Below, in pieces: positions 16,569 to 55,477 of a DNA stretch of 64,000 nt. The position numbers were made by a program, and so were the translations under genes. The notes below the pieces were generated by a model. It was not told the DNA's origin, searched no databases, and was given only the letters and a program-made list of their open reading frames with translations. The first letter of the stretch is position 1. Every line of letters starts with the position of its first letter. This DNA is from Candidatus Parcubacteria bacterium (lineage in GTDB: Bacteria; Patescibacteriota; Minisyncoccia; UBA6257; HR35). The DNA is taken from NCBI GenBank assembly GCA_026004535.1, contig BPJI01000001.1, positions 15,915 to 79,914 on the forward strand, written 5' to 3'.

Positions 16569-19500
16569 TTAACCTTTAATAACTCCAATTGGTACTAATT
16601 TTACTACTTTTTTAGCAATCCCAATATTATGGACAACATCGACAACCGCAGAGACATCTTTATAAGCAATTGGTGCTTCCTCGGCCAAGCCTGACATACT
16701 TCCAGCAGCAACTGAAATTCCTCTTCCTTCCAATTCTTTTTTTAATTCACTTCCTCTTATTTTTCTTTTTGCTTCAGCTCTTGACATCATTCTACCTGCA
16801 CCATGAGGTGCTGAACCAAAAGAAATTTCTTTGGCTAATTCTTGACCAATTAAAACATAACTTGAAGTTCCCATCGATCCAGGAATCAATGTTGGCTGAC
16901 CAATTTGACGATATTTTTCAGGAAGCTCAGAATGACCTTGCCAAAAAGCCCTTGTTGCTCCTTTACGATGTACCAATAGCTTTTTATTATCATATTCTTC
17001 AATTTTCACAATATTATGAGCAACATCATAAACTTGTTTTAATTCAATTTCTTTACCAAAAACTTTTTTAAATGCTTTTCTTACTTCATAAGTAATAAGT
17101 TGTCTATTAGCAAAAGCAAAATTAGCTGAAGCTTTCATTGCTGATAAATAAGCTTGACCAAGTTCGTGGCTATAAGGAAAATAAGCCAATTCTCTATCAA
17201 CTAAGTCAATTCCTTGTTTATCTAAATATCTTAAAGCTTCGCGAATATAATCAGTTGCAACTTGATGGCCTAAGCCTCTTGAACCGCAATGAATTAAAAC
17301 ACAAACTTTATTTTTTTCTAAACCTAATTTTTTAGCAATTTCTTCATTCTTGTCTGTCGACCAGGCAGGAAAAATTTCAGCTACTCTTTGAATTTCAACA
17401 AAATGATTGCCAGCACCAATTGTTCCTAATTGATCCCTGCCCCGATCTTTAGCTGTTTTTGAAACCCTATCAGAATCTGCGCCTTCAATTTTTCCATAAC
17501 TTTCTGTTGCTTCTAAATCTTCTTTAGTAGCATAACCAATTTCATAAAGCCATTTTGCTCCTTCTTCTAAAACTTTTTTCATCTCATTATTATTCAATCT
17601 CCAAAAACCACCTCTACCAACACCTGAAGGAACTTCTTTAAAAATTTGTTCTGTTAATTTTGGTATTTTATCTTTAATTTCTTCATAATAAAAAGGAGAA
17701 ACTAAAAGACGAACGCCACAATTTGAAACAACAATATTATTAGCAATAAAATTGTGATCTGGATGGTCAATAGTTAAATCATAAACATAACCTGAATAAT
17801 TAATTTCTTCTATACCTTCTATTTCATCAATAACAAAATCACCATAAGAGTAAAATTTAATAAAATCTTTAAAAGAAAGAAAATTAAAAGCAATTCTTAC
17901 TTCACTTGCACCTTCCCAAATCGATCTTTCAATAAATCTTTCATTAATAAACTCACTAGAAAAAACTTTGACTAATTCTCTTTTAGAAACTCTGTTGATT
18001 AAATAATATTCTTTTATTTTGTTTCTTATATCCTGCCTTTGATTTTTTATTTTCTCTTTATATTTCAAATAAGCAAGAGCTAAGTTACTTAATTTTTGTT
18101 TTTCTTGATTATATTCAAAACCAATTGCTTCAAAAAATCTAATTAAATTCTTTGGCTCTGATTTAATTTGAAACCTTAAACCAATTGTTTTATTTTTTAT
18201 CCCTAATTCCTCCATAACTTTTATTTCTGACGTCTCGATGCCAAATTCTTTAAGCATATCTCTAATTTCTTGCATAAACTCTAAGCCATTATTTACTAAC
18301 TTTTTATTTTTATTAATATTTAAAACTAAAGCAGATAGATTAAATTTATGAAAAGCACTTGGAGAAGAAAGTTCAGCACCAAAAAACGAAGCCAAGAACA
18401 ACCTTTTTTGCCATAAAGGTAATTTTTTTAACCAATAAGGCAATTTAAATTCAACTTCTGTCTTTTTACCAATTGGATAACCCAAAGCTCCTAAAAGCAA
18501 AGCAAAACTTTTACTAATTCTTAAGCAATATTCTGTTCTTTCAAATTCACAATTTTTGCCATAAGTATTAATCAATTTATGTTTTTTCTTTCTTTTAACT
18601 ATTATTGAATTAACACCAATTTTTTCTAAATCTTTTTTTATTAGTTTTAAATCACCTAATTGACCCCATAAAGATAGATGATTAAAATTTTTAGGGATAT
18701 TTCCGTCGCCTAAGGCATAAGCAAAAATTTTAATAATATAAGGAAAAACAAATGAATCTGAATACAAAGGCAAGAGATTTTTTCTTTCTAAGTAATTAGT
18801 AATTTGAGCTAATTGATTGCCTTTTTTTGTTATACCATTTTTAGTACAAAATTCAATAAATTTTTCTTTACTTAAAATCAATATTCTTTTAGGCTTTTCA
18901 TACTTAACGCCTTTAAAGGGATAGGTTAATATTTTTTCTCCAATTTCTAAATTTTTAGCTTCCTTCATACCAAAAAGAGTATATATTGGATGATCTGGAG
19001 TTATTAAAATTTCATTTCCGAATTTTGTTTTAATTTTAAGAAGTTTTGTTTCTTTTCTCTTAAGATTTAAAATAATTTTTGCTTTTTCTAATTTTTTCTT
19101 TTTTTTGTTTAAAAGATAAACTTCAAAATCTTTATTTAAATCTTTAATTTCTAAATAAGTACCATTTTCTAAATTAACCAAAGTATCGGGATGAAGACAG
19201 TTGATATCAAAGCCAACACCGCCAGGAGAAACTGTGCCTTCTTTTCCCAGATCTGTAGCTAAAACACCACCAACGCAATTTGAAACCACAAAATTATTAG
19301 CAATAAAATTATGATCTTGATGATTAACAGTCAAATCATAAACATAATCTGAATAATCTACTTCTTCAATTTTTTCTATTTCATCAAAGCAAAAACCGCT
19401 ATTTGATAAAGCTTTTGTTTTAACAAAATCTCTTAAGCTAATAAATTTAGTTGGTACTTTAGGTTTTAAGTAATTCAAGTTATTATTTAATCGATAACAA

Positions 19501-21011
19501 ACATCTTCGATCCATCTTTGGGTAAACAATTCATTCTTCAACTTAGCTCCTATTTTTTGATAACTTAAACCTGAATTTAAAAACTGAAAGATTGAGTAAA
19601 TTAATTTCTCTCGCTCTAATAATATTTTTTTCTTAGCCCTTAAATAAATACTATAAATACTTGCTTTAGCCATTCTTCCTCGGTTATACTCATAACCTAT
19701 TTTTGACCAAAGATTCAAAAGTGATTCTAATTTGCTTGAAAAAACTAGTTCTAAAGAAATAGTTAAATTTCCATTTTTATCTTTTATTAGTCTTCTTTTA
19801 TTTATTTTTGTTGTTTCAACCCCAAATTCTTGACAAAGCTTGGCAATATCATTAAGAAAATCTAATCCATTTTTAACTAAATCAATTCTTTTGTTCATTG
19901 GATAAACAGGAGAATCAAAGCCAAATCTTCTTTTAAGACGACGATGAGGGGTTCTAAGTTCACAACCAAATAAAGTAGCTAAAAATAATCTTTTTTGCCA
20001 TAATGGTGCTTTAAAAATCCATTTAGGTACTCTGTATTTTTGATTAACTTTATTTCCTAATGGAGCACCTAAAGAAGCTAATAAAATTAAAAGACTTGAA
20101 GCATTAACATAAAATTCATAAGCTTTATATTTCCCATCCTTTATCCTTCTATAAATTTTTGAAGAATGATAGCCAATTTTTGATAAGTCTTCTTTAATCT
20201 CTAATAAATCTTCTTTTTCACCAACAAAAGATAAAACTCCGTCTTTCTTTTTACCAATAAAATTCATTGATCCATCACCAAAAATAAAAGCTAAAATTTT
20301 AATAACTTCTGGAAGTTTAGGATTGTCATAGGTTAGAGGTATGAGATTTTTTTCTTTTAATTTTTTTATAATAATTTTTAATGAATTTTTACTTTTAGAA
20401 GGATTGATTTTATTAAAAGTTTCTTTGATTGACTTTTCATCAACTATTATTTCTGAACCCGGTTTTTCAAAATGAACTCCTTCAAATCCACAAACAAGAA
20501 CTTCATCACCTATTTTTAAGTCTTCTATTTTTTTCATCCCATCCCAAGTAAAAATTGGATGGTCTTGGGTAGCAGTTATTTCTAAGCCAGATTTGGTAGT
20601 CAATTTAAATATTTTGTTATAAGGTTTTAATTTGTAAAACCTCAAAATATTGGCTTTGACTAATTTAGCTTTGCTTTTGTCAAAAAGGCAAATTTTTTCA
20701 TTTTTATATATTTTTTCAAAATCTTCAATATTTAAATAATAACCATAAGAACTTAAAATTTTAGTTCCTTTAATTAAACAAAAACCATAACCTTCATGAA
20801 CATCGGGCATAGCTAAAGCATACTTATAGGCCCCAGGTAAAGTTGCCATATTCACTAATTGCCATAAACTTTTATCTTCCAAAATATCATCCAGCATTTT
20901 TTCAGAAGCAAAAATCCGAGCAGGTACTTTCATATCTTCACGAAAACTTTGAGGAATTTCCCAAATATAATCTGAAACTTTAATTAAATCCTTTTTCTCT
21001 GGTTTTTTCAT
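16569..21011 (-). CDS. rtcB: RNA-splicing ligase RtcB. The precursor carries two full-length inteins. The start is assigned to the internal Met (MKKPEKKD), not the upstream extension.
   Basis: Extein motifs AMPDVHEGYGF | CVGGVLATD...GVGFDIN | CGVRLL are interrupted twice. Extein total is about 486 aa. Each insert begins with Cys, ends HNFIANN(F/I)VVSN, and is followed by Cys. Confidence 0.85.
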   Translation of the reverse strand: MKKPEKKDLIKVSDYIWEIPQSFREDMKVPARIFASEKMLDDILEDKSLWQLVNMATLPGAYKYALAMPDVHEGYGFCLIKGTKILSSYGYYLNIEDFEKIYKNEKICLFDKSKAKLVKANILRFYKLKPYNKIFKLTTKSGLEITATQDHPIFTWDGMKKIEDLKIGDEVLVCGFEGVHFEKPGSEIIVDEKSIKETFNKINPSKSKNSLKIIIKKLKEKNLIPLTYDNPKLPEVIKILAFIFGDGSMNFIGKKKDGVLSFVGEKEDLLEIKEDLSKIGYHSSKIYRRIKDGKYKAYEFYVNASSLLILLASLGAPLGNKVNQKYRVPKWIFKAPLWQKRLFLATLFGCELRTPHRRLKRRFGFDSPVYPMNKRIDLVKNGLDFLNDIAKLCQEFGVETTKINKRRLIKDKNGNLTISLELVFSSKLESLLNLWSKIGYEYNRGRMAKASIYSIYLRAKKKILLEREKLIYSIFQFLNSGLSYQKIGAKLKNELFTQRWIEDVCYRLNNNLNYLKPKVPTKFISLRDFVKTKALSNSGFCFDEIEKIEEVDYSDYVYDLTVNHQDHNFIANNFVVSNCVGGVLATDLGKEGTVSPGGVGFDINCLHPDTLVNLENGTYLEIKDLNKDFEVYLLNKKKKKLEKAKIILNLKRKETKLLKIKTKFGNEILITPDHPIYTLFGMKEAKNLEIGEKILTYPFKGVKYEKPKRILILSKEKFIEFCTKNGITKKGNQLAQITNYLERKNLLPLYSDSFVFPYIIKIFAYALGDGNIPKNFNHLSLWGQLGDLKLIKKDLEKIGVNSIIVKRKKKHKLINTYGKNCEFERTEYCLRISKSFALLLGALGYPIGKKTEVEFKLPYWLKKLPLWQKRLFLASFFGAELSSPSAFHKFNLSALVLNINKNKKLVNNGLEFMQEIRDMLKEFGIETSEIKVMEELGIKNKTIGLRFQIKSEPKNLIRFFEAIGFEYNQEKQKLSNLALAYLKYKEKIKNQRQDIRNKIKEYYLINRVSKRELVKVFSSEFINERFIERSIWEGASEVRIAFNFLSFKDFIKFYSYGDFVIDEIEGIEEINYSGYVYDLTIDHPDHNFIANNIVVSNCGVRLLVSPFYYEEIKDKIPKLTEQIFKEVPSGVGRGGFWRLNNNEMKKVLEEGAKWLYEIGYATKEDLEATESYGKIEGADSDRVSKTAKDRGRDQLGTIGAGNHFVEIQRVAEIFPAWSTDKNEEIAKKLGLEKNKVCVLIHCGSRGLGHQVATDYIREALRYLDKQGIDLVDRELAYFPYSHELGQAYLSAMKASANFAFANRQLITYEVRKAFKKVFGKEIELKQVYDVAHNIVKIEEYDNKKLLVHRKGATRAFWQGHSELPEKYRQIGQPTLIPGSMGTSSYVLIGQELAKEISFGSAPHGAGRMMSRAEAKRKIRGSELKKELEGRGISVAAGSMSGLAEEAPIAYKDVSAVVDVVHNIGIAKKVVKLVPIGVIKG
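17721..19199 (-). mobile_element. Intein 2 in RtcB (about 493 aa) with a LAGLIDADG homing endonuclease domain. It is paralogous to intein 1.
   Basis: N-terminal C-LHPD. FAYALGDGNIP. C-terminal DHPDHNFIANNIVVSN + C. The C-terminal about 70 nt are near-identical to intein 1. Confidence 0.75.
19278..20780 (-). mobile_element. Intein 1 in RtcB (about 501 aa) with a LAGLIDADG homing endonuclease domain.
   Basis: N-terminal C-LIKG. LAGLIDADG-type ILAFIFGDGSM. C-terminal DHNFIANNFVVSN followed by extein Cys (tgc at 19275-19277). Confidence 0.75.
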
Positions 21012-21027
21012 AATATAATAATTATAA

Positions 21028-22395
21028 ATGGATAAGAAATTATGGCAGATAATTGAAAAAGAAATAAAAAGGCAAGAAGAAACTTTAGATCTCATTCCCT
21101 CAGAAAATTTTGTTGACTTAGAAACCCTATTTATAGTTGGTTCCCCTTTAATGAATAAATATGCTGAAGGTTATCCTGGTAAAAGATATTATCCGGGAAA
21201 TAAATTTATTGATGAAATTGAAAATTTGGCTAAAGAAAGAGCTTTAAAGGTTTTTAAGTTAAATCCTAATGAGTGGGCAGTCAACGTTCAGCCTTATTCA
21301 GGTTCACCAGCAAATTTAGCTGTTTATTTAGCTTTAGCTGAACCAGGAGAGACAATAATGGGATTAAATCTGTTTCATGGTGGTCATTTAACTCATGGCC
21401 ATAAAGTTAGTTATACTGGTAAATTATTTAAATCAGTTCAATATGGAGTTAATCCTCAAACTGAAACAATTGATTATGAAGAATTAGAAAAATTAGTTTT
21501 GGAATATAAACCAAAAATCATTATTTCAGGAACAACTGCTTATCCAAGAACAATTGATTTTAAAAGAATTGGAGAAATTGCTAAAAAAGTCGGAGCTTAT
21601 CATGTTGCTGATACTTCGCATATTGCTGGTTTAGTTATTGCTAATTTGCATCCTTCTCCATTTTCCTTTGCTGATATAGTTACAATGACAACTCATAAAA
21701 CTTTAAGAGGACCAAGAGGAGCAGTTATTTTTATGAGGAAAGAACTTGAAGAAAAAATTAATAAATCTGTTTTTCCTGGTCTTCAAGGAGGACCACATAT
21801 GCAGACAATTGCTGGAATTGCTTATGCTTTTGGTCGAGCTTTGAAAAAAGATTTTTTTAATTATCAAAAACAAATAGTTAAAAATGCAAAATTTTTAGCT
21901 GAAGAACTTAAAAAAAGAGGCTTTAAATTATATACTGATGGAACCGATAATCATTTAATGATAGTTGACCTAAAACCTTTAACTCAAACTTCCTTAGGAT
22001 GCATGCAGACTAAAGCATATAGTAAACAGAACTACAACAAATTAACGCAGAAATTAGATAAAAATTCAAATTCTACTCAATCTATAGGGAAAATTGCTGA
22101 AACTCTTTTAGAAAGAGCAAATATTATCGCCAATCGTAATTCTTTACCTTCGGATACTTCACCCTTCAATCCTACTGGTATTAGATTAGGTACACCAGCA
22201 GTCACTAGTCGAGGAATGAAAGAAAAAGAAATGAAACTTATTGCTGAATTTTTTGAAAGAATCTTAATTAAAAAAGAAAAGCCAGAGAGAATTAAAAAAG
22301 AAGTTATTAAATTAGTAAAGAATTTTCCTTTGCCTTATAGAAAATGGCTGATTAGATTACATTTACTACCTTCTTCCAGATTTTTTTACCACTAA
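21028..22395 (+). CDS. glyA: Serine hydroxymethyltransferase. It carries an in-frame about 30 aa insertion from a palindromic element.
   Basis: SHMT motifs [16 protein letters not shown] and [11 protein letters not shown]. The insertion [34 protein letters not shown] sits between conserved DLKP and IGKIAE. Confidence 0.85.
21985..22085. repeat. Palindromic element copy PE3, in-frame inside glyA.
   Basis: cagaactacaacaaattaacgcagaaatta is homologous to cagaactttacagaacttacgcagaactta (PE1, same frame). The encoded [10 protein letters not shown] matches QNFTELTQNL. Confidence 0.5.
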
Positions 22396-25600: not shown

Positions 25601-26169
25601 TTAACCTGAATTGTTTTTAATTCTTCTTTAATTTGATTAAAAATAATTGTTTTTTGCTTTTTCTCTTCCCTTGATTCAGCCTTAGCCATAAATTCTTTAT
25701 ATTCTTTCTCAATTTCAGTTAAAATTCTTTTTTTCTCTTCCTCATTAACACGAGTAATAATATAAGCAGAATAGTAAATAACTTTTTCTAATTGATATAA
25801 AGGAATGTCTAAAAATAGTTTCAAAGGATAAGGATAAACTTTTAGGAACCAAATGTGAGCACAAGGAGAGACTAAAGTAATATGCCCCATTCTTTCCCGC
25901 CTAACTGAAGAGTGAGTAACCTCAACTCCACATCTTTCGCAAACTATGCCCTTAACTTGAGGATTTTTATATTTACCACAAGCACATTCATAGTTTTTCA
26001 TTGGACCAAAAATTACTTCCGAGAAAAGACCAAGTCTTTCTGGCTTACCAGTTCGATAATTAATTGTCTCTGGCCTTAAAACTTCTCCCTTGCTCCAAGT
26101 TAAAATCTCCTCAGGCGAAGCAATCTTTAAAACTAATTTTTCAATTTCGGTTGTAGAAATATTTCTCAT
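22561..26169 (-). CDS. rpoC: DNA-directed RNA polymerase subunit beta'.
   Basis: Zn-finger CACGKY...CERCGVEV. Catalytic [11 protein letters not shown]. Length 1202 aa. Confidence 0.9.
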
Positions 26170-29100
26170 TCTTGTTTAATTTCTTTAACTTGGACTTTTT
26201 CAATTTCTGGCGATTTTTCTTTTTCTTCTTCTTGACGATAATGAATTTCAATATTTAAACCTAAACCTCTAAGTTCATTAATTAAAACATTAAAAATAGC
26301 TGGCGAGGAAGTGGTTTCGACATCTTCGCCTTTAGTTATTCTTTCATAAGTCAAATGACGACCACGAATATCATCAGATTTAATTGTCAATGTTTCATGT
26401 AAGATTTCTGTTGCTCCATGCGCTTCAAAAGCCCACATTTCCATTTCACCAACTCTTTGACCCCCAGCCTGGGCTCGACCACCCAATGGTTGTTGAGTAA
26501 TTAGAGAGTAAGGACCAGAAGAACGAGCGTGGATCTTGTCTTCAACCATATGAATTAACTTCATCACAGTCATATAACCAACAACAACTCTTTGAGCAAA
26601 TGGTTCACCAGTTAAACCGTCATAAAGCATTGTTTTACCATCTTCAGGAAGTCCTGCTTTTCTTAATTCCTCTTTAATTTCTTCTGGTGTAACGCCCGAA
26701 AATGGAGGAATTACTGCTCGATAACCTAATTTTTTAGCTGCCAAACCCAAATGAGTCTCTAAAATCTGGCCAAGATTCATTCTTGAAATTACTCCGAGGG
26801 GATTTAAGATAATATCTAATCTTCGGCCATCAGGTAAAAATGGCATATCTTCCTCTTTAGCAATGAGCGAAATTACTCCTTTATTACCATGACGATTGGC
26901 TAATTTGTCACCAACCTGAATTTTTCTTAATTTACCAATTTCAACAAAGATCCTTTTCAAGACGCCTAATTCAGTAATTTCACCTTTGCTTCTTTCTAAA
27001 ATTCTTATCTTAATTACCCTTCCCTCTTTGCCTTGTTCTAAATACAAAGATGAATCTTTCTTTTCCTCAGCTTTTTCTCCAAAAATTGCCTTTAATAATT
27101 TTTCTTCTGGTGTCAGGGTTACCTCTCTTTTAGGAGTAATCTTACCAACTAAAATATCTCCGGGCTTAACCCAAGTACCAACTCTTACTAAACCATCAAC
27201 ATCTAGATTCTTTAATTTAGCCTCGGGCACACCAGGAATATCTGAAGTTGTCATTTCTGGCCCTAAACGAGTATCTAAAACATCAATTGAAAATTCTTCT
27301 AAATAAACAGATGAGAAAATATCTTCTTTTAACAATCTTTCAGAAATAATAATCGCATCTTCGTAATTATATCCATACCAAGACAAAAAACCAACCAAAA
27401 GATTTTGACCTAGGGCCAAAGTGCTATCTTTAATTGCTGGGCCATCAGTTAAAATATCACCTTTTTTAACTTTTTGACCGAGCTTAACAATTGGTTTTTG
27501 ATTATAACAAGTAAATTTAGATGTTCTTTCAAATTTTTTCAATTGATAAACCTTTTTACTGTAACCTCTAGCTGTTTTCACTCTTAAGGTAATATGATCA
27601 GCATCAACTTCAATCACCTCACCGTCTTCCTCAGCAATTAAAACCAAACCTGAATCACGAGCAACTTTTTCCTCTAAACCAGTTGAAACCAAAGGAATAT
27701 CCGGCTTAACTAAAGGTACGGCTTGTTTTTGCATATTTGTTCCCATTTGAGCACGATTAGCATCATTATGTTCACCAAAAGGAATTAAAGAAGTTGAGGC
27801 TGAAAAAATCTGAAAAGGCGAAACATCAATAAACTCAACTTTTTCTCTTTCAATTATTGTTGGCTCGCCTTTAACTCGAGCCTCAACATCTTTTTCTAAA
27901 ATATTTCCTTTATCGTCTATCTTTACAAATCTTGAAGCAATAACATGCTCTTTCTCTTCAGCCGCAGTTAACCAAACTATTTCATTAGTTACTTTGCCAT
28001 TAATGACTTTAAAATAGGGTGTTTCTAAAAAGCCATAAGGATTTCTTCGGCTATATAAAGCCTTAGCTAAGTTAATACCAACGTTTTGACCTTCAACTGG
28101 AGTATGAATTGGGCAAATTTTGCCGTAATGAGTTGGATGAACATCTCTAGCCTCTAGCGTTGCTCTTTCTTTAGTTAAGCCTCCTGGACCACCAGCAGTC
28201 AATTTTCTTTTATGTTCAACTTCAGCTAAAGGATTGGTCTGGTCTAAAATTTGAGAAAGTTGTGAAGTATTAAAAAACTCAATTAAACTATTCAAAAATT
28301 TTCTTGGATAAACAACTTGTGAGGGCATTAAGGCTTGAGTACGATCGACAGAGCTCATTCTATCTTGAATATCTTTTTTAAGTCTAACAATACCAATTCT
28401 AGCTTGATTTTCCAAAAGTTCGCCAACATCACGGACACGTCGATTATATAGAGAATCAACTTCGTCAGCTTCAGCTAAAGGATCATTATTTAAACGAACG
28501 ATTTCTTTTAATGTTTCTAGAATATCTTCTTTTTCTAAAGTTAAAGATTGAGAATTTCTTTTAAGTCTTCGGTTTAAATGATAACGGCCAATATCAAAAA
28601 GATTGTAACGACCAAGATTTAAGAATGTCGATTCAAAATAAAAAACAGCATTATCATAGGTATTAGGTTCAAAAGATTTTAATTTACGATGGATTTCTAA
28701 AAGAGCCTCTTCTTTTGTTTGAGTTTCATCTTTTTTTAGTGTATTATCAATTAAATCAAATTCATCCTTGATTCCCTTAAAAGCTTCTAAAATTTCTTCA
28801 TTATTTTCATAACCAAAGGCTTTAAGCAAAATAGTGGCATAGACTTTTTTACGACGATCGATTCTGACAGTAATAACATTAGTTGGCTCAGTTTGAAATT
28901 CAAGCCAAGCTCCTTGTTGAGGTAAAATTTTAGCACCAAATTTTTTAGATTCACCGTAAATAAGATAGTTAAAATAAATTCCTGGAGAGCGGAGAAGTTG
29001 ATTGACAATTACTCTTTCGATACCATTAATAATGAAAGAACAATTTTTAGTCATAATCGGAATTTCACCGAAAAATATTTTTTGTGTTCTTTCCTCTCTA

Positions 29101-29372
29101 GCAACCAGATTCTCTAATTTAAGAGTAATTCTTAAAGGAGCAGCGTAATTAACACCATAATATTTTGCTTCTTCTTCAGTAATTTTTGGTTCACCAATTT
29201 CATAATCAACAAAATCTAACTTAAGTTCTTTTTCTGAATAATCATAAATAGGAAAATAATCCTGAAAAACCTTTCTCAATCCTTCACTTAAAAATCGATT
29301 AAATGAGTTTTGTAAATCCTCCAAAAGATATCCTGGCTCTAAATAGGAAAATTTGGAAAAATTTTTGAGCAT
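26166..29372 (-). CDS. rpoB: DNA-directed RNA polymerase subunit beta.
   Basis: Conserved rpoB blocks (GEMEMWAFEAHGA, NLGQILE). 1068 aa. It overlaps rpoC by 4 bp. Confidence 0.9.
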   Translation of the reverse strand: MLKNFSKFSYLEPGYLLEDLQNSFNRFLSEGLRKVFQDYFPIYDYSEKELKLDFVDYEIGEPKITEEEAKYYGVNYAAPLRITLKLENLVAREERTQKIFFGEIPIMTKNCSFIINGIERVIVNQLLRSPGIYFNYLIYGESKKFGAKILPQQGAWLEFQTEPTNVITVRIDRRKKVYATILLKAFGYENNEEILEAFKGIKDEFDLIDNTLKKDETQTKEEALLEIHRKLKSFEPNTYDNAVFYFESTFLNLGRYNLFDIGRYHLNRRLKRNSQSLTLEKEDILETLKEIVRLNNDPLAEADEVDSLYNRRVRDVGELLENQARIGIVRLKKDIQDRMSSVDRTQALMPSQVVYPRKFLNSLIEFFNTSQLSQILDQTNPLAEVEHKRKLTAGGPGGLTKERATLEARDVHPTHYGKICPIHTPVEGQNVGINLAKALYSRRNPYGFLETPYFKVINGKVTNEIVWLTAAEEKEHVIASRFVKIDDKGNILEKDVEARVKGEPTIIEREKVEFIDVSPFQIFSASTSLIPFGEHNDANRAQMGTNMQKQAVPLVKPDIPLVSTGLEEKVARDSGLVLIAEEDGEVIEVDADHITLRVKTARGYSKKVYQLKKFERTSKFTCYNQKPIVKLGQKVKKGDILTDGPAIKDSTLALGQNLLVGFLSWYGYNYEDAIIISERLLKEDIFSSVYLEEFSIDVLDTRLGPEMTTSDIPGVPEAKLKNLDVDGLVRVGTWVKPGDILVGKITPKREVTLTPEEKLLKAIFGEKAEEKKDSSLYLEQGKEGRVIKIRILERSKGEITELGVLKRIFVEIGKLRKIQVGDKLANRHGNKGVISLIAKEEDMPFLPDGRRLDIILNPLGVISRMNLGQILETHLGLAAKKLGYRAVIPPFSGVTPEEIKEELRKAGLPEDGKTMLYDGLTGEPFAQRVVVGYMTVMKLIHMVEDKIHARSSGPYSLITQQPLGGRAQAGGQRVGEMEMWAFEAHGATEILHETLTIKSDDIRGRHLTYERITKGEDVETTSSPAIFNVLINELRGLGLNIEIHYRQEEEKEKSPEIEKVQVKEIKQE

Positions 29373-29486: not shown

Positions 29487-29653
29487 GTACCCCATTTTTG
29501 TATAAATTCATAAATTCCTCAGTTGCGAATTACGAGTTAACGAGTTCATTTTTTTTATATTTTGTATTTGAACTCGGAACTTACGAAGCAAATTCTTTCG
29601 TTGGCGGACCGCGCCCGCCGTAGCCCGATGGAGCTTTAACTACGGAGGGCAAG

Positions 29654-29789
29654 GGCGGAGGTGGTGGGGCTCGAAAACGGTAAGCTCCACGAAAACCATA
29701 ATTATAACAACGCTATTTTGCTCTCGTTCCTGTTTAGTGCTTTTGGTTAGTTAGGTTGTAGTGGGTTCATCGCCCACCCCCAATCCTTG
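29654..29789 (-). ncRNA. tRNA-adjacent conserved element, copy 1 (about 135 nt). It is structured, and its 3' end copies the tRNA-Ser T-loop/acceptor.
   Basis: Core gggtgggcgatgaacccactacaa ... cactaaacaggaacgagag ... cgtggagcttaccgttttcgag. It ends with gagccccaccacctcc. It sits directly 3' of tRNA-Ser. Confidence 0.4.
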
Positions 29790-29874
29790 CGGAGGGGGTG
29801 GGGCTCGAACCCACAAGGCCGCAAGGGCCACCGGTTTTCAAGACCGGCCGATTAGCCAATTCTCGCACCCCTCC
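29790..29874 (-). tRNA. tRNA-Ser (anticodon TGA) with a long variable arm.
   Basis: Reverse complement ggaggggtgcgagaattggctaatcggccggtcttgaaaaccgg..., anticodon loop ctTGAaa, variable arm, T-loop GGTTCGAGCCCC. Confidence 0.75.
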
Positions 29875-30027
29875 ACTATAAATAGCTTCTCAGCTTCATA
29901 GCCTCTCAGCTTTTAAGCTTATTAATTATAACATACTTTACGACTTGGCAAATTTTTTAAAAACAAACTCACTTCTCCTAACTTGATACGATCGTATTTA
30001 AATAGTAGAAATGAAAAATTTATAGGT

Positions 30028-30232
30028 TATCCCGATAGAAACATGATATACTACCCGGATTATTACCGGATATAGTTACCCGGATTATTACCGGATAGAT
30101 TACCCGGATGAATACTGGATATATTAGCATGATGGAAAGTATATAATATTATCCTGATGAAAACCGGATATACTACCCGGATTAGTACTGGATATTAATA
30201 CCATGATGAAAACTATATATTATCTAAAGTAA
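30028..30232. repeat. Phased CCGGATA array c (forward-type units only, as two tandem subarrays). A 15 bp inverted repeat agcttctcagcttca flanks it at 29884 and 30268.
   Basis: Sequence tactacccggattattaccggatatagttacccggattattaccggatagattacccggatg ... a second subarray. Confidence 0.7.
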
Positions 30233-30292
30233 AAATTGAGGACATACGATGTCCCGATATTTTCTTTGAAGCTGAGAAGCTGAGGGATTATT

Positions 30293-31483
30293 TAGTTGCT
30301 TCATACAGGGCCTTTATTTCTTGATCTGATAAAGCACGATTGTAGATGCGAACTTCGTCGATGAGACCTTCAAAACGTTAGTCGAAACTACCTATACAAA
30401 TGAATAAGGATCTAGTATCTATCAATCCTGCTCCGAGCAACTGCAGTTGTATCTCTCTCACCATTTAAAAATTATCATTAGCTGCCATTAAGTGAGATAC
30501 AACATAATGCCATTTACCTAAAGAATCATTAGTATTTCCTAATGATCCAGTATTATAATTCTCCATAGTGTTCACGTTTGCTCTAAGAATTAGCTTCACA
30601 TTATCTTGCCTATAAACTCCAGCTTTCCTTTCAATGCCGTGGCTTACATACAATGTTTTCTGAGTTTTTGACTCCAGCCAGTAACATAAACCAAATGAAT
30701 TGTGATTATGCTATCTTATATCTAAAGTTGAGAATGAGGCACCTCTACATAATCATCCACTCCATCAAAACTTAAAGCTTTGCCTACTTTACCATCAACC
30801 CATTGAGGACCATTATAGAGTGTTCCATTATTATTGTTTCCTGAATAATCATTAGCAATATTTCCAGTTCCTTCATCAAAAGACCAATACCCTACAAGTC
30901 CTTGAGCTTGATCAATGAGTCTTTTATTTGTTCCTACTGAAAATAGATGAGGATAATTATCATTGTCTGTTTTTGAGGCTTGAGACTGAGGATTTTCTAA
31001 TTGAGCATAGAGAGCATAACTTCCTCCAGCAACAAATGCATAGTAATATGGAGGTCTATTGATTGGATCAATGAAAAGTCTAGAAAGATTAATGCTTGAA
31101 AATTGATTAAAAGGAATAGGAATCCAGCCAGTACCATCAATATTTGTTGGAGTTGCTGAGCATCAATATGACCAGCCTGAAGGAAGCTGTGGTAATTGAC
31201 TTATCCATTGACCACAAGTTGATGAAGTATCAGGAAGAGAGATATAGACAACATTTGAGGAAGCATATTGAAGTTCAGAAAAGGTGCCTTGAGTTTCAAA
31301 AAGAATAAGGTCAAATATTTTTTCAAGATTTTTAAGGTCTGAAGTTCTTTGACTATCTCTACCTCTTTTAAAGATATCTGCTGGCTTAATGACAACAATT
31401 AAGACAGTAGCTAAGATAGCTATTAGAGCTAAGACAACTAAGAGTTCAACTAAAGTGAAGGATTTATTCATTTTTTTATTCAT
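30293..31483 (-). pseudogene. Degraded type IV pilin-like gene with a C-terminal LamG/concanavalin-A-like lectin domain.
   Basis: Prepilin N-terminus KSFTLVELLVVLALIAIL. The frame continues through an in-frame TGA at about 31160 into GYWSFDEGTGNIANDYSGNNNNGTLYNGPQWVDGKVGKALSFDGVDDYV. After a frameshift comes ...FEGLIDEVRIYNRALSDQEIKALYEAT*. GC is about 40%, against about 30% around it. Confidence 0.5.
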
Positions 31484-37747: not shown

Positions 37748-37875
37748 TGCTGGGGGTGGGACTCGAAAACGGTAAACTCCACGCCAGTATTATCAAAAAC
37801 AAAGCCCTTTGACTCTCGTTCCTGTTTAGTGATTTTAATTCGTTGGATTGTAGTGGGTTCATCGCCCACCCTCAG
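37748..37875 (-). ncRNA. tRNA-adjacent conserved element, copy 2 (about 128 nt). Its 3' end copies the tRNA-Leu T-loop/acceptor.
   Basis: Same core as copy 1 (gggtgggcgatgaacccactacaa, cactaaacaggaacgagag, cgtggagtttaccgttttcgag). It ends gagtcccacccccagc, identical to the tRNA-Leu 3' end. It lies 52 nt 3' of tRNA-Leu. Confidence 0.4.
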
Positions 37876-37927
37876 CTGGTAATGATAGTTTTGTGAACGA
37901 CATAAAGGTTCTACTCCATTACGTTTT

Positions 37928-38013
37928 TGCTGGGGGTGGGACTCGAACCCACATGCTCCAAAAGGAGCCCATGGTCCTAAGCCATGGCTGTCTACCAATT
38001 CCAGCACCCCAGC
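37928..38013 (-). tRNA. tRNA-Leu (anticodon TAG) with a long variable arm.
   Basis: Reverse complement gctggggtgctggaattggtagacagccatggcttaggaccatgg..., anticodon loop ctTAGga. Confidence 0.75.
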
Positions 38014-38160
38014 ATCAGAATGAATATCCGTGTAAATCCGTGGTTATTTGATAATCCGTGTACCCCGAACCAGAGCAAAGCACGATTCGGGGTTACCCCG
38101 TACCGTACTTCATTTCTGGTACGGGGTAAATCCGTTTTAAATCCGTGTAAGTCCGTGGTT
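38014..38160. repeat. Two adjacent GC-rich hairpins bracketed by 24 bp direct repeats (aaataaccacgga[c/t]ttacacggat). A possible terminator or small structured insert.
   Basis: Hairpins accccgtacc...ggtacggggt and ccccgaa...ttcgggg. Direct repeats at about 38026-38050 and 38135-38160. Confidence 0.45.
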
Positions 38161-38392
38161 ATTTAAAAAACATCTCAATTAATTTAGGAATTGTCCTTGA
38201 AAGAAAAACTAAAACAATCCCTCCTAAAATCAAACCCCATCTTTTATGAACTTTCTTTATTTTTTCTTCAGCTGGCGAAGTTATATAAATTATGCCTAAA
38301 TAAATTATAACTCCAGCCAACAAACTAAGAGATAAAACAAAAATCAAATTAAACAAACTATTAATTAACTTTAAAAATCCTGGCTCGATCAT
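38159..38392 (-). CDS. Pilin-like small membrane protein, paralog family member 1.
   Basis: Two hydrophobic helices separated by a basic loop: LAGVIIYLGIIYITSPAEEKIKKVHKRWGLILGGIVLVFLS. Confidence 0.5.
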   Translation of the reverse strand: MIEPGFLKLINSLFNLIFVLSLSLLAGVIIYLGIIYITSPAEEKIKKVHKRWGLILGGIVLVFLSRTIPKLIEMFFK

Positions 38393-39093
38393 TGTAACTT
38401 AGTAAAGAATAAGTCAATCATCTTGACAATTGTAAATGAAAGGATAGCAATAACTATACCAATAATACCATAAATTAATCTTTTATGAATATCCTTACTC
38501 TTTTCAGGTTTGGTTATATATAAAATTCCTGCCCAAGAAAGAAAAATTACTCCCAAAAATATTGCTAAAACATATAACAAAGATAAAATTCTTTGAAGAT
38601 AATATAAAAAACAATCTTTCCAAGCTGCTCCAGATACATTTGTACTTTCTAAAACCGAGGGGATATTGCATCCAGCTATTTTTTTTGGTAATTCTGGTTC
38701 AGTTACCTGAGCATAAGTAAAATTTATTGGCAAGTATATTTGTTGTTTAGTTAGCCAAGTCTCTATAGCCATAACAAAAGCATAAGAAAGCAAAGCAACA
38801 ACTAAACCAATTACTGCATAAATTATTTTTTGATGAATTTCTTTTCCTTTTTCACCCGGGCTTCCCTTAGAAATATATAAAATTCCAGCCCAAGCAATAA
38901 AAATCGCCGCCAAAACCAAAGCTAAAACTATTATAATCCTTAAAATTTTATTAAAGAAAAATCCTAAACAAGCAAAAAAATTCTCTCCACAATCAATAAC
39001 TGGAGGCAAATTAATAGAAGGAAAACCTAAATTCTGAGCCAAAACAATATTAAACAAAACCAACCCTATTATTATTTTTTTCATTATAATCAC
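38389..39093 (-). CDS. Pilin-like membrane protein with an internal tandem duplication (paralog 2).
   Basis: Module one: LAAIFIAWAGILYISKGSPGEKGKEIHQKIIYAVIGLVVALLS. Module two: IFLGVIFLSWAGILYITKPEKSKDIHKRLIYGIIGIVIAILS. Each module has the family motif (W/A)AGI.YI...K....(R/K).IY..IG...A.LS. Confidence 0.55.
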   Translation of the reverse strand: MIIMKKIIIGLVLFNIVLAQNLGFPSINLPPVIDCGENFFACLGFFFNKILRIIIVLALVLAAIFIAWAGILYISKGSPGEKGKEIHQKIIYAVIGLVVALLSYAFVMAIETWLTKQQIYLPINFTYAQVTEPELPKKIAGCNIPSVLESTNVSGAAWKDCFLYYLQRILSLLYVLAIFLGVIFLSWAGILYITKPEKSKDIHKRLIYGIIGIVIAILSFTIVKMIDLFFTKLQ

Positions 39094-39096
39094 TCA

Positions 39097-39495
39097 CTAT
39101 ATTCTTCCCCCACCTATAATCCTAGTGAATATAGTAACTAAAACCCATGACAAAAAGGCAAAAATTAAGCCAATTGCCGCATAAATGAGACGATTTTTAG
39201 CTGCTTCTCTTTTCTTATCGTCAGTCCCACCTGATATATAAGTGATGCCGGCCCAAGCAATGGATAAAGCGGAGAAAATTAAGGCAACAACCAAAATAAC
39301 CCTCAATAAATCTCCTAAAAGTTTCAACATACATCGTCTTAAAGTATCGTTTGGCGAACAACTAAAAAGTCGTGTGGGGATATCTGGCTCGGGCAAAACT
39401 TCAGGACTATATACGTACTGGGCAAAAGATGAATAAGGTGCTAAAAGTGTCAATAAAGTAAGCAAAATAATTAGTTGATTTAATTTCATCTTCAA
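39097..39495 (-). CDS. Pilin-like small secreted/membrane protein (paralog 3).
   Basis: Signal peptide, then LIFSALSIAWAGITYISGGTDDKKREAAKNRLIYAAIGLIFAFLS. Confidence 0.55.
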   Translation of the reverse strand: MKMKLNQLIILLTLLTLLAPYSSFAQYVYSPEVLPEPDIPTRLFSCSPNDTLRRCMLKLLGDLLRVILVVALIFSALSIAWAGITYISGGTDDKKREAAKNRLIYAAIGLIFAFLSWVLVTIFTRIIGGGRI

Positions 39496-44665: not shown

Positions 44666-44689
44666 TTTATTAATATGCAGAGCATAATG

Positions 44690-44812
44690 AACTGACACTG
44701 AACATACTAAACCAACGCTGAACTAACAGAAGATGATGAATAAATAGTAAAATTATTCTATGAGTTTTGTGTTAGTTCGGTATAGTTCTGCGTATAGTTC
44801 TTTAAGTTATGT
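44690..44812. repeat. Palindromic element copy PE4, intergenic, in the gyrA 5' leader.
   Basis: gaactgacactgaac...gctgaactaacagaag...attattctatgag...tgttagttcgg...agttctgcgtatagttct aligns with PE1 gaaactgacgcagaactaacaaaattattctgtaagttctgcgtaagttct. Confidence 0.6.
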
Positions 44813-44813
44813 G

Positions 44814-45002
44814 TCATTTTATTAAATTGCCAACAGCTTCGAAAATAGTTGCTAAGCCTAGATTAAAATTTTGCCAAACAAAAGCTAATGTTTTTTCTGC
44901 TGGTGATGGACTAAGATAACCGCCCCAGATTGTACCACCACTAAACCACCAAAGAAAAATCAACACTAACATTATTGAAGTAACAAATAAAAACTTTTTC
45001 AT
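44814..45002 (-). CDS. Small hypothetical membrane protein.
   Basis: 62 aa, one TM helix, overlaps the next ORF by 4 bp. Confidence 0.3.
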   Translation of the reverse strand: MKKFLFVTSIMLVLIFLWWFSGGTIWGGYLSPSPAEKTLAFVWQNFNLGLATIFEAVGNLIK

Positions 45003-45472: not shown

Positions 45473-45551
45473 TTAATAATGAACTCATTAACTCGTTAAT
45501 TCGCGAACTAATGAATTAAATTTTTGTTTTATGTTATAATTTTATCACAAA

Positions 45552-49943: not shown

Positions 49944-50015
49944 GGGCGGGTAGCTCAGTGGCAGAGCATCACGTTTACACCGTGAAGGTCGTGGGTTCAA
50001 ATCCCACCCCGCCCA
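49944..50015 (+). tRNA. tRNA-Val (anticodon TAC).
   Basis: gggcgggtagctcagtggcagagcatcacgtttacaccgtga..., anticodon loop ttTACac. Confidence 0.8.
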
Positions 50016-50146
50016 ATAGACATGGTGGGCAATAACCCACTTATAAATTAATAATATCTAAGCGTAAAACAAAAATGAGGAAGTCAAAACAAAATATTAG
50101 TAAAAAGAATAAGTTTTGCCGTTTTAGAATCATCTTCTGCCGCTAG

Positions 50147-50677: not shown

Positions 50678-50733
50678 ATAGTTAAAATATTGGAAATATT
50701 TTATAATATAAATATCTTAAAACATTCAAGAAG

Positions 50734-54856: not shown

Positions 54857-54858
54857 AA

Positions 54859-55470: not shown

Positions 55471-55477
55471 TAATAAT

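What the first reader, a model, noticed from the sequence alone, without database searches (positions are those of the whole stretch)
29654..29789. A conserved ~130 nt element immediately 3' of two different tRNAs, each copy ending in a duplicate of its own tRNA 3' end
Downstream of tRNA-Ser(TGA) (29790-29874) and of tRNA-Leu(TAG) (37928-38013) lie two homologous segments. They share a core: a T-arm-like hairpin gggtgggcgatgaacccac, then tacaa, cactaaacaggaacgagag and cgtgga g(c/t)ttaccgttttcgag. Each copy ends with the T-loop plus acceptor 3' strand of the adjacent tRNA: gagccccacc(a)cctcc for Ser and gagtcccacccccagc for Leu. A partial 3' tRNA duplicate bordering a foreign segment is the hallmark of integration into a tRNA gene. 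Here the insert is only about 130-185 bp, and the same insert occurs at two different tRNAs. Two readings are possible. One is a miniature tRNA-targeting mobile element, possibly the attL-attR scar of a T-loop-targeting integrase. The other is a co-transcribed structured RNA with a tRNA-like 3' end that RNase P/Z would process.
Basis: seen in the sequence. Interest (0 to 1): 0.75.

Follow-up and report, generated by a model that had tools for sequence, protein, structure and literature searches.

The report
Tiny insertion element targeting tRNA genes
A roughly 110-base non-coding DNA element sits just behind several different tRNA genes in a small group of Parcubacteria, each copy followed by a duplicate of that tRNA's last 20-25 bases, and it behaves like a miniature mobile element rather than an RNA gene, although the enzyme that moves it is unknown.

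Summary
Two homologous about 106-109 nt cores lie 3' of tRNA-Ser(TGA) and tRNA-Leu(TAG). Each is followed by a copy of its own tRNA from T54 (the first base of the T loop) to the discriminator base. A third, decayed copy follows tRNA-Val(TAC).

Related Parcubacteria contigs carry the same core behind tRNA-Ser, Leu(CAA), Leu(TAA) and a Thr-like tRNA end. Short relics follow tRNA-Pro, and one tandem array follows a tRNA-Leu(TAA). All host tRNAs share the T arm GTGGG-TTCRARY-CCCAC. Near-identical genomes differ by a clean 190-nt presence/absence bounded by a 25-nt direct repeat, and five other tRNA-Ser sites are empty.

The two ends of the core are the best conserved parts and form an imperfect inverted repeat. 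The interior varies and the duplicated tRNA ends decay. Both strands fold about equally, and none of 20 predicted pairs covaries. There is no Rfam match and no phage or plasmid match. No integrase, transposase or reverse transcriptase was found in the 64-kb window, or among the genes checked at related loci, apart from one Xer-like recombinase 4.5 kb from an empty site.

Best reading: a non-autonomous, T-arm-targeted insertion element that duplicates the tRNA 3' segment. The structured-RNA reading is not supported. The mobilising enzyme and the locus-specific spacer remain unexplained.

The parts
29790..29874 (-). tRNA-Ser(TGA), intact. T arm GTGGG-TTCGAGC-CCCAC. This is the host or target gene of copy S.
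   Evidence: ARAGORN. Rfam tRNA model, 52 bits.
29789..29809 (-). Left copy of the direct repeat: T54 to G73 of tRNA-Ser plus 1 nt (TTCGAGCCCCACCCCCTCCGC).
   Evidence: the repeat finder family D3. Side-by-side comparison.
29782..29788 (-). Locus-specific spacer of copy S (AAGGATT).
   Evidence: Sequence. Alignment.
29676..29781 (-). Core of copy S, 106 nt. Left terminal block GGGGGTGGGCGATGAACCCAC. Central block CACTAAACAGGAACGAGAG (29721-29739). Right terminal block GTGGAGCTTACCGTT (29676-29690).
   Evidence: nhmmer E = 8e-31.
29655..29675 (-). Right copy of the direct repeat (TTCGAGCCCCACCACCTCCGC), 20/21 identical to the tRNA-Ser 3' end.
   Evidence: (D3).
37928..38013 (-). tRNA-Leu(TAG), intact. 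T arm GTGGG-TTCGAGT-CCCAC. Host gene of copy L. Its last 20 nt (37928-37947) are the left copy of the direct repeat.
   Evidence: ARAGORN. (D3).
37768..37876 (-). Core of copy L, 109 nt. It begins with GCTGAGG-GTGGG, the inverted complement of the tRNA-Leu 3' strand CCCAC-CCCCAGC with one mismatch. It ends with GTGGAGTTTACCGTT.
   Evidence: nhmmer E = 5e-32.
37748..37767 (-). Right copy of the direct repeat (TTCGAGTCCCACCCCCAGCA), 20/20 identical to the tRNA-Leu(TAG) 3' end.
   Evidence: (D3).
49944..50015 (+). tRNA-Val(TAC). T arm GTGGG-TTCAAAT-CCCAC. Host gene of a decayed third copy.
   Evidence: ARAGORN. Rfam..
50024..50143 (+). Probable decayed third copy. It has GGTGGGCAATAACCCACT (50024-50041), then AGTTTTGCCGTT (50112-50123), then a C-to-T-eroded Val 3' end (50124-50143). 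Order and spacing match copies S and L.
   Evidence: Sequence. The local alignment of the 5' block is significant (p = 0.002-0.005). The copy is not picked up by nhmmer, so it is only probable.

Best explanation
This is a family of very small (about 105-125 bp), non-coding, non-autonomous insertion elements found in one Parcubacteria (candidate phyla radiation, CPR) clade.

Target. The elements go to tRNA genes whose T arm reads GTGGG-TTCRARY-CCCAC(C).

Anatomy of a copy, in order:
- an intact tRNA
- a short spacer of 7-77 nt that differs at every locus
- the conserved core
- a second copy of the tRNA segment from T54 to the 3' end, plus 0-20 nt of trailer

The two ends of the core are its best conserved parts and form an imperfect inverted repeat: GGGGTGGG-CGA-n-GAAC ... 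GTTT-TCG-AGY-CCCACCCC. The right end therefore merges into a T-loop/T-stem sequence.

Most likely mechanism (inferred). A recombinase or transposase encoded elsewhere in the genome recognises the palindromic T-arm DNA. It opens the gene at or just 3' of position 53/54 and joins the element there. The stretch from the T loop to just beyond the tRNA end is duplicated. The tRNA gene therefore stays whole, and any tRNA with that T arm can be used.

This geometry resembles casposase or Cas1 integration next to a TΨC-loop palindrome. It resembles less a classical integrase, which would need an attP matched to each tRNA.

Later events are recombination between the direct repeats, which deletes the element or amplifies it into arrays, and mutational decay.

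Shown: the repeats, the tRNA range, the T-arm association, the presence/absence polymorphism, the decay, and the lack of RNA covariation.

Inferred: the cut site, the duplication step, mobilisation in trans, and the type of enzyme.
For: 1. Copies behind many tRNA species. The same core follows tRNA-Ser(TGA), Leu(TAG), Leu(CAA), Leu(TAA) and a Thr-like end. There are relics behind Val(TAC) and Pro(CGG). Each copy is followed by the 3' end of its own tRNA, and every host tRNA is intact.

2. Shape of the direct repeat. The repeat always starts at T54. It ends at variable points: 20, 21, 21, 21, 23, 25 and 40 nt. In three cases it runs past the tRNA end.

3. Presence/absence. L002 (empty) and L015/L008 (filled) have nearly identical flanks and differ by a 190-nt indel bounded by a 25-nt repeat. 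Five further tRNA-Ser sites are empty: L004, L005, L024, L025 and L002.

4. T-arm association. 11 of 19 tRNAs with the GTGGG/CCCAC T stem carry a copy, against 0 of 13 with other T stems. Part of this sample was ascertained through the element itself. In the window the count is 3 of 4 against 0 of 4.

5. Relationships among copies. The two window copies are more alike (76%) than either is to the Ser copies of other genomes (60-67%). That fits spread between tRNA species within a lineage.

6. Conservation pattern. The terminal blocks are invariant while the interior varies. This is the pattern of transposon ends.

7. Not an RNA signature. There is no compensatory pair among 20 predicted pairs. 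Both strands fold similarly. There is no Rfam family.

8. Decay. The duplicated tRNA ends carry lineage-specific substitutions, and whole copies decay.

9. Precedents in the literature. The A. boonei casposase uses the TΨC-loop region of tRNA-Pro as its target and duplicates 15 bp overlapping the tRNA end (PMC5137440). The T-loop integrase of phage Ms6 needs a 26-bp attP core matched to each tRNA (PMC1762012).
Against: - No candidate enzyme was seen. All 48 ORFs of at least 120 aa in the window (plus the shorter ORFs beside copies S and L), and the genes checked at related loci, lack an integrase, transposase, reverse transcriptase, Cas1 or TnpB (gene tables). The single exception is a Xer-like tyrosine recombinase in L024, 4.5 kb from an empty tRNA-Ser site, where no element is present.
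- No autonomous relative and no phage or plasmid source was found.
- The spacer between tRNA and core differs at every locus and matches nothing. A simple cut-and-paste element should not carry a different left part each time.
- A duplication of 20-25 bp is longer than any known transposon target-site duplication except CRISPR repeat duplication.
- In two copies (L017 Pro, L007 Ser) the T loop of the duplicate reads TTCGAGT, the family consensus, and not the T loop of its own tRNA. That fits a crossover inside the shared T-arm homology better than a plain duplication.
- Only about 8 independent copies are known, all from one narrow clade.
Confidence: 0.5

Rival explanations
1. These are remnants or mini-derivatives of classical integrative elements. 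A T-loop-specific tyrosine integrase recombines attP with the tRNA T loop. The functional tRNA 3' end is then supplied by the element (attL) and the original end is displaced (attR). The conserved core would be the P arm next to attR. The interior, including the integrase gene, has been deleted. The mini-elements may be moved in trans, as cis-mobilisable elements are.
For: - A 20-25-bp direct repeat running from the T loop to the tRNA end is the classical signature of tRNA-integrating islands and phages (Ms6 T-loop attB, PMC1762012).
- Tandem arrays of such repeats occur (L012).
- The tRNA-Ser 3' flank is a hot spot where a 4.2-kb segment comes and goes.
- The T loop of the right-hand copy matches the family consensus and not its own tRNA in L017 and L007-Ser.
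Against: - No integrase lies in or near any of about 10 copies.
- All metagenome hits are the mini form.
- The same core sits at 6 or more tRNA species, all of which are intact. This would need a separately matched attP for each (compare). Yet the copies within the window genome cluster together across tRNA species.
- The left boundary of the core is the same everywhere, which random deletions would not give.
- A 130-200-bp double-stranded circle is a poor recombination substrate.
Confidence: 0.27
2. This is a functional non-coding RNA. It would be co-transcribed with the tRNA and would fold into an acceptor/T-arm minihelix carrying a roughly 100-nt inserted domain. RNase P, RNase Z or the CCA-adding enzyme would process it, in the manner of a t-element or mascRNA.
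For: - No promoter is predicted between tRNA and element, so co-transcription is likely.
- The 5' and 3' ends pair over 8-12 bp. In the Ser and Leu(TAG) copies the pairing extends into the tRNA-specific acceptor strand, which looks like covariation between loci.
- Sequence blocks are conserved between genomes whose rpoB DNA is only 83% identical.
Against: - None of 20 pairs has a compensatory change. Stem mutations in L008, L007-Ser and copy S are uncompensated.
- Folding z-scores are modest and alike on both strands. Copy S scores +0.07.
- The Rfam tRNA and tmRNA models do not match.
- The tRNA-like end mutates as fast as the rest of the element and in three cases includes trailer DNA.
- The element is absent from close relatives, and some copies are decayed.
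- The acceptor complement is missing in the Leu(CAA) and Leu(TAA) copies.
Confidence: 0.1
3. This is a guide RNA. The core would be a scaffold, and the 20 nt that follow would be a guide matching the tRNA gene. It would direct a nuclease or transposase encoded elsewhere, in the way TnpB omega-RNAs work or the tRNA-homing crRNAs of CRISPR-associated transposons. Insertion would then fall some tens of bases downstream of the target.
For: - The architecture is a conserved scaffold followed by a 20-nt tRNA-matching segment directly after an invariant handle (TGGAGYTTACCGTT).
- The element lies 7-77 nt downstream of the matched tRNA.
- The relics in L012 and L017 keep exactly the handle plus the match.
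Against: - The match runs on into trailer DNA by 3, 5 and 20 nt in three cases, so its length is not fixed.
- The native flank follows the match in the filled-versus-empty comparison. That marks it as displaced target DNA.
- No TnpB, IscB, Cas12 or IS110-type gene was seen.
- There is no evidence for an RNA structure.
- A guide against an essential single-copy tRNA gene would be self-destructive.
Confidence: 0.05

Closest known systems
tRNA T-loop-integrating tyrosine-integrase elements (for example mycobacteriophage Ms6 and P4-like genomic islands)
   Same: - The direct repeat consists of the tRNA segment from the T loop to the 3' end, about 20-26 bp.
- The tRNA stays functional.
- Repeated events at one tRNA can build arrays.
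   Different: - This element is about 110 bp, has no integrase and carries no cargo.
- The same element sits at 6 or more tRNA species. Ms6 needs a core matched to each tRNA (PMC1762012).
- The left boundary is constant, and a locus-specific spacer lies between tRNA and element.
Casposons (Cas1-solo transposons), with CRISPR spacer integration as the related reaction
   Same: - The target is read from the palindromic TΨC-loop DNA at the end of a tRNA gene.
- Insertion duplicates the adjacent segment, which overlaps the tRNA end, so the gene is preserved.
- The element has terminal inverted repeats.
(A. boonei: 15-bp duplication; PMC5137440.)
   Different: - Casposons are large and encode Cas1 and PolB. 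No such genes were seen here.
- The duplication here is 20-25 bp and starts inside the T loop, not after it.
- The host is a CPR bacterium.
- This is a resemblance in mechanism only. Membership was not shown.
Bacterial MITEs (miniature inverted-repeat transposable elements)
   Same: - Small, non-coding and present in several copies.
- Conserved, inverted-repeat-like ends with a variable interior.
- Presence/absence polymorphism.
- Presumed mobilisation in trans.
   Different: - MITEs make 2-10-bp duplications and derive from a recognisable insertion sequence with the same ends.
- Here the duplication is 20-25 bp, the target is a tRNA T arm, and no parent insertion sequence is known.
tRNA-like processing elements in RNA (plant mitochondrial t-elements, the MALAT1 mascRNA), from my own knowledge
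   Same: A tRNA-like acceptor/T-arm mimic lies downstream of another RNA and could be cut by RNase P or RNase Z.
   Different: - No covariation was found and the structure is not specific to one strand.
- The tRNA-like end decays.
- The duplicate includes trailer DNA.

Membership tests
tRNA-integrating tyrosine-integrase element (attL/attR) | The direct repeat is formed by the 3' part of the tRNA gene, starting in the T loop or anticodon loop. | tested here: met
   A 20-25-nt repeat (40 nt in L017) starts at T54 in every copy.
tRNA-integrating tyrosine-integrase element (attL/attR) | An integrase gene lies inside the element, usually next to the tRNA. | tested here: not met
   The distance between the two repeat copies is only 102-200 nt, which leaves no room for an ORF. 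No Phage_integrase domain was found in the window or near any copy.
tRNA-integrating tyrosine-integrase element (attL/attR) | One element lineage is dedicated to one tRNA species, with attP matched to that tRNA. | tested here: not met
   One core family sits at 6 or more tRNA species, and the two window copies cluster together across tRNA species. The requirement itself is taken from PMC1762012.
MITE | Small, non-coding, several copies per genome. | tested here: met
   The core is 106-109 nt. There are three copies in 64 kb and two copies in the 23-kb locus L007.
MITE | Terminal inverted repeats. | tested here: inconclusive
   Eight base pairs are perfect (GGGGTGGG/CCCACCCC) and 7 more pair with bulges. 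94% of cells are paired, against 35-56% when the partner is slid. The right arm is also simply the tRNA T-arm sequence.
MITE | A short target-site duplication (2-10 bp) and a parent insertion sequence with the same ends. | tested here: not met
   The duplication is 20-25 nt. No parent element was found in the genome, metagenome, viral, phage or plasmid searches.
Casposon | Encodes Cas1 (casposase) and PolB between terminal inverted repeats. | tested here: not met
   The element has no ORF, and no Cas1 or PolB was found in the window.
Casposon | The target is the TΨC-loop region of a tRNA gene plus an adjacent segment that is duplicated. | tested here: inconclusive
   The geometry is similar: there is a T-arm association and a duplication that overlaps the tRNA end. 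Here, however, the duplication starts inside the T loop and is longer than 15 bp (PMC5137440).
Known RNA families (tRNA, tmRNA, Y RNA-like, ribozymes and the rest of Rfam 15) | A covariance-model match. | tested here: not met
   Nothing reached the gathering score. The only hits inside the element have E of at least 1, which is noise. ARAGORN finds no tmRNA.
Structured non-coding RNA (generic) | Base pairs kept through compensatory changes, and a structure specific to one strand. | tested here: not met
   None of 20 pairs has a change on both sides, and the covariation score is below the shuffle mean. Folding z-scores are alike on the two strands. Only 7 distinct sequences were available, so statistical power is low.
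IS200/IS605 miniature element or TnpB omega-RNA | Subterminal hairpins at both ends, no target duplication, tnpA or tnpB in the genome, and a guide taken from the flank. | tested here: inconclusive
   A hairpin is present only at the left end, a long duplication is present, and no TnpA or TnpB was found in the window. The whole genome could not be searched.

The most novel reading that the evidence does not exclude
This could be a new kind of bacterial mobile element: a roughly 110-bp non-autonomous unit moved by an as yet unidentified enzyme. That enzyme would read the palindromic T-arm DNA of tRNA genes and insert at the T loop while duplicating 20-25 bp or more. It could be a casposase/Cas1-like, HUH-type or target-primed reverse-transcription mechanism. 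The following features would also fit a SINE-like, RNA-mediated route:
- a precise right junction
- a ragged left junction with filler DNA
- relics truncated at the 5' end
- likely co-transcription with the tRNA
That route would be unprecedented in bacteria.
Probability: 0.25. Interest if true: 0.8.

Novelty: new variant of a known kind. Interest (0 to 1): 0.6.

Why it matters
tRNA genes are the classic landing sites for large islands and phages, but a miniature, protein-less element that spreads among many tRNA species while leaving each intact has not, to my knowledge, been described.

If it is mobile, some enzyme in these very small CPR genomes recognises T-arm DNA and makes unusually long target duplications. 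Apart from CRISPR repeat duplication by Cas1-Cas2, the closest known precedent is the Cas1 casposase. Finding that enzyme could therefore bear on how CRISPR adaptation-like integration evolved, and it could yield a compact tRNA-site integration tool.

The element also marks a recombination hot spot next to rpoB and other core genes. It explains odd partial tRNA duplicates that annotation pipelines will meet in Parcubacteria genomes assembled from metagenomes.

Tried and rejected
- Known RNA family. Rfam at gathering score on the whole window, and at E up to 10 on three copies, gave only noise.
- tmRNA or tRNA-like gene on either strand. ARAGORN and the covariance models found nothing.
- Collection scans. 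The genome-contig scan with the central 19-mer gave one chance hit in an Acidobacteriota genome. In hindsight the right-end pattern would have been a better choice. Three viral scans gave only chance hits in GC-rich contigs. BLAST against phages and plasmids gave no match.
- Spacers as decayed older copies. Similarity to the element is not significant, p above 0.3. The related idea that the spacers are decayed tRNA bodies was only checked by eye on two loci and not tested statistically.
- Spacers copied from elsewhere.
- A short target duplication flanking GGGGTGGG...CCCACCCC. None was seen by inspection of the flanks.
- A helix ACGGCAAAC/GTTTACCGT seen in the L003 clade. It is lost without compensation in both window copies.
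- Extending the window genome through edge proteins. One protein was not on record and the other lies on a 1.2-kb contig.
- A LAGLIDADG endonuclease 740 nt upstream of the tRNA-Leu in L011. It occurs at only one locus, so it was not pursued as the mobilising enzyme.
- RtcB as a partner in an RNA-level 'spare 3' half' scheme. This was rejected because the duplicated ends decay.

Full report
**Source and setting**

The window is a chromosome segment of a Candidatus Parcubacteria (candidate phyla radiation, CPR) genome assembled from a metagenome.
- G+C content is about 30%.
- Its RpoB (26166-29372, minus strand) is 100% identical to a protein that NCBI names as Parcubacteria, on a 556-kb contig.
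- The genes around the finding are housekeeping genes: rpoBC, TyrRS, MetRS, FtsW, RbfA, gyrA and ribosomal proteins. There are also type IV secretion-like genes.

tRNA-Ser(TGA) lies at 29790-29874 and tRNA-Leu(TAG) at 37927-38014. Both are on the minus strand. Downstream of each lies a homologous segment.
- The blocks GGGTGGGCGATGAACCCACTACAA and CACTAAACAGGAACGAGAG each occur exactly twice in 64 kb, where 0.00-0.01 matches are expected by chance.
- Each segment is followed by a copy of its own tRNA from T54, the first base of the T loop, to the discriminator base. For Ser this is 21 nt with one mismatch, with the two copies 134 nt apart. For Leu it is 20/20, with the copies 180 nt apart.
- The conserved core is 106 nt (29676-29781) and 109 nt (37768-37876).
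- Between tRNA and core lies a spacer of 7 nt (Ser) or 51 nt (Leu). The two spacers are not homologous.

**A third copy in the window**

tRNA-Val(TAC) lies at 49944-50015 on the plus strand. It is followed by these pieces, in the same order and spacing as in copies S and L:
- GGTGGGCAATAACCCACT
- AGTTTTGCCGTT
- a C-to-T-eroded Val 3' end

The 5' block is significant against shuffles (p = 0.002-0.005). The whole copy is too decayed for nhmmer to detect.

Of the eight tRNAs in the window, four have the T stem GTGGG/CCCAC: Ser, Leu-TAG, Val-TAC and Thr-CGT. Three of these four carry a copy. None of the four tRNAs with other T stems does.

**Copies elsewhere**

I reached related genomes by two routes. 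One was RpoB homologues and their contigs. The other was one metagenome scan with the right-end motif TGGAGYTTACCGTTTTYGAG.

Full copies follow these tRNAs:
- tRNA-Ser(TGA) in L003, L007, L008 and L015
- tRNA-Leu(CAA) in L007
- tRNA-Leu(TAA) in L011 and L014
- a Thr-like 3' end in L010, where the contig starts inside the element

In every case the copy is followed by the last 20-25 nt of its own upstream tRNA, and that tRNA is intact.

Short relics keep only the last 14-15 nt of the core (TGGAGTTTACCGTT) in front of a duplicated tRNA end.
- L017 has one behind tRNA-Pro(CGG). There the duplication runs 20 nt into the tRNA trailer.
- L012 has a tandem array of three units behind tRNA-Leu(TAA). 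Two of these units carry the 3' end of a different tRNA.

Three other hits of the metagenome scan (L009, L013, L016), all viral hits and the one genome hit are chance matches in unrelated GC-rich DNA.

**Presence/absence**

L002 and L015/L008 have nearly identical flanks on both sides of tRNA-Ser. They differ by a 190-nt block consisting of spacer, core and one repeat copy. The block is bounded by the 25-nt direct repeat TTCGAGCCCCACCC[C/T]CTCCGCAAAC.

The native tRNA trailer follows the second repeat copy. The same holds when L011 is compared with its orthologous locus L012.

tRNA-Ser is also unoccupied in L004, L025, L005 and L024. So the element is dispensable and polymorphic among close relatives. 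rpoB DNA identity is 92-93% among L002, L003 and L007, and about 83% between these and the window.

**Relationships among copies**

- The two window copies are 76% identical to each other, but only 60-67% identical to any copy in the other genomes, including their Ser copies.
- In the L003/L007/L008 clade the Ser copies are 90-95% alike, and the Leu copies are about 80% from them.
- L003 and L007-Ser have cores that are 95% identical but unrelated spacers. The break in homology falls in the loop of the left-end hairpin.
- The two ends of the core are invariant across the family, and the interior varies.
- Between L003 and L008 the core (92%) is no better conserved than the neighbouring intergenic DNA. 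The spacer is 91% identical by BLAST, and the region upstream of the tRNA is about 90% by my own count. So there is no sign of special constraint over short evolutionary distances.

**RNA or DNA?**

RNAalifold predicts that the ends pair: GGGGTGGG with CCCACCCC, CGA with TCG, and GAAC with GTTT. But none of the 20 pairs shows a change on both sides, and the covariation score is below the shuffle mean.

Stem mutations are uncompensated: GTGAG in L008, GTGTA in L007-Ser, and GAGCTT in copy S.

Folding z-scores on the tRNA strand are +0.07, -2.9, -2.2, -0.8, -0.8, -3.6 and -1.5. On the opposite strand they are -1.0, -2.5, -2.4, -0.8, -1.6, -2.2 and -1.7. This is the signature of an inverted repeat in DNA, not of a strand-specific RNA.

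No Rfam family matches, tRNA and tmRNA included.

The duplicated tRNA ends carry different substitutions in each lineage while the real tRNA is invariant. So the 'tRNA-like 3' end' is not maintained by selection.

No promoter is predicted between tRNA and element. The element is therefore probably transcribed with the tRNA. Nothing suggests that this transcript has a function.

**An odd detail at the left end**

The left end of the core is the inverted complement of the tRNA 3' strand. In the Ser copies and in copy L the complementarity runs on into the tRNA-specific acceptor strand:
- copy L has GCTGAGG, against GCTGGGG in tRNA-Leu
- L008 has AGAGGGG, L003 has AGAAGGG and copy S has GGAttGGGG, against GGAGGGG in tRNA-Ser

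This extension is absent in the Leu(CAA) and Leu(TAA) copies. The pattern looks like single mutations away from an originally perfect 12-bp inverted copy. That hints at snap-back synthesis on the T-arm hairpin, or at quasi-palindrome correction. I could not test this.

**The enzyme**

No integrase, transposase, reverse transcriptase, Cas1 or TnpB domain was found in any of the 48 ORFs of at least 120 aa in the window, or in the shorter ORFs beside copies S and L. None was found in the contexts of the other copies either (and the gene tables).

The only exceptions are these:
- a Xer-like recombinase far from the empty tRNA-Ser in L024
- a LAGLIDADG endonuclease 740 nt upstream of the tRNA-Leu in L011

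Whatever moves the element is encoded elsewhere.

**Mechanism**

Two families of explanation fit the repeat.

*Classical T-loop integrase.* This gives exactly such repeats. But Ms6 shows that attP must match the tRNA core (PMC1762012). Here one core family sits at 6 or more tRNA species, each left intact, and the copies of one genome cluster across tRNA species.

*Target-duplicating insertion.* The enzyme reads the T-arm palindrome and duplicates the downstream stretch. This explains those facts directly. It has a precedent in the A. boonei casposase, whose target is the TΨC-loop region of tRNA-Pro plus a 15-bp segment that becomes duplicated (PMC5137440).

I favour the second explanation, with moderate confidence. 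Three things count against it:
- The spacer is locus-specific and matches nothing.
- The duplication is unusually long.
- In two copies the duplicate's T loop shows the family consensus and not the T loop of its own tRNA.

Recombination between the direct repeats then accounts for the empty sites and the arrays.

**Verdict**

It is a small, clade-restricted, tRNA-T-arm-associated insertion element, not a structured RNA gene. It is a new variant of tRNA-targeted mobile DNA. The open question is the mobilising enzyme, and the spacer remains unexplained.

Noticed in passing
window 16569-21095 (-): A 1508-aa RtcB RNA ligase gene is interrupted by intein sequences (Intein_splicing, two stretches, plus a Hint-like domain). 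An intein-free RtcB lies in the same neighbourhood in L005, and an Archease gene lies next to SerRS in L023.
   Followed up: no
window 29875-31160, especially 29879-30294: 1.3 kb with no ORF of 70 aa or more lies directly upstream of tRNA-Ser. Within it, inverted repeats bound a roughly 416-bp unit (29879-29905 and 30268-30294). The unit holds three copies of a 59-nt repeat with the motif ACCCGGATTATTACCGGATA (30027-30207). This may be another small repeat element or a regulatory array.
   Followed up: no
window 38021-38169: Two 29-nt direct repeats, ATCCGTGTAA[A/G]TCCGTGGTTATTT, flank a 17-bp-arm palindrome (38088-38134) just upstream of tRNA-Leu(TAG). A similar CGGATTAACGCGGAT motif recurs in the L007 spacer and in L011/L014.
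   Followed up: no
window 29500-29655 (-): Between copy S and the consensus rpoB promoter (29486-29457) lie a 60-nt GC-rich hairpin region and an AT-rich hairpin with an 8-bp stem, CGAGTTCA/TGAACTCG (z = -2.7). In L003 and L007 the promoter follows the element directly.
   Followed up: partly
L002 5750-9900; L015 4803-8975; L008: A 4.2-kb segment (a DUF5663 gene plus a 1249-aa Metallophos protein) lies between the tRNA-Ser 3' end, or its duplicate, and the rpoB promoter. It is absent in L003, L007, L004, L025 and the window. The upstream neighbour of tRNA-Ser also differs between these genomes. The tRNA-Ser locus is therefore a rearrangement hot spot.
   Followed up: partly
L012 480-931 (-): A tandem array lies behind tRNA-Leu(TAA). 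It has three units. Each is GTGGAGTTT[AC/GG]CGTT, then a 20-nt tRNA 3' end, then an AT-rich terminator-like hairpin. Two of the tRNA ends (TTCGAATCCC[G/A]CCCGTGCCTC) belong to a tRNA that is not present on the contig.
   Followed up: partly
L011 337-915 (+): A free-standing LAGLIDADG_2 homing endonuclease ORF (192 aa, E = 2e-36) lies about 740 nt upstream of the occupied tRNA-Leu(TAA).
   Followed up: no
window 50147-59925 (+): Directly after tRNA-Val(TAC) and its decayed copy comes a roughly 10-kb cluster of mostly unannotated genes. It includes a VirB4/TraG-like ATPase and a T4SS pilin-YkuD fusion. More T4SS pilin genes lie at 38389-39495, upstream of tRNA-Leu.
   Followed up: no
window about 44000-46000: Cumulative GC skew reaches its minimum here. 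Gene orientation switches from the minus strand (22-45 kb) to the plus strand (45-61 kb). This suggests a replication origin near gyrA.
   Followed up: no
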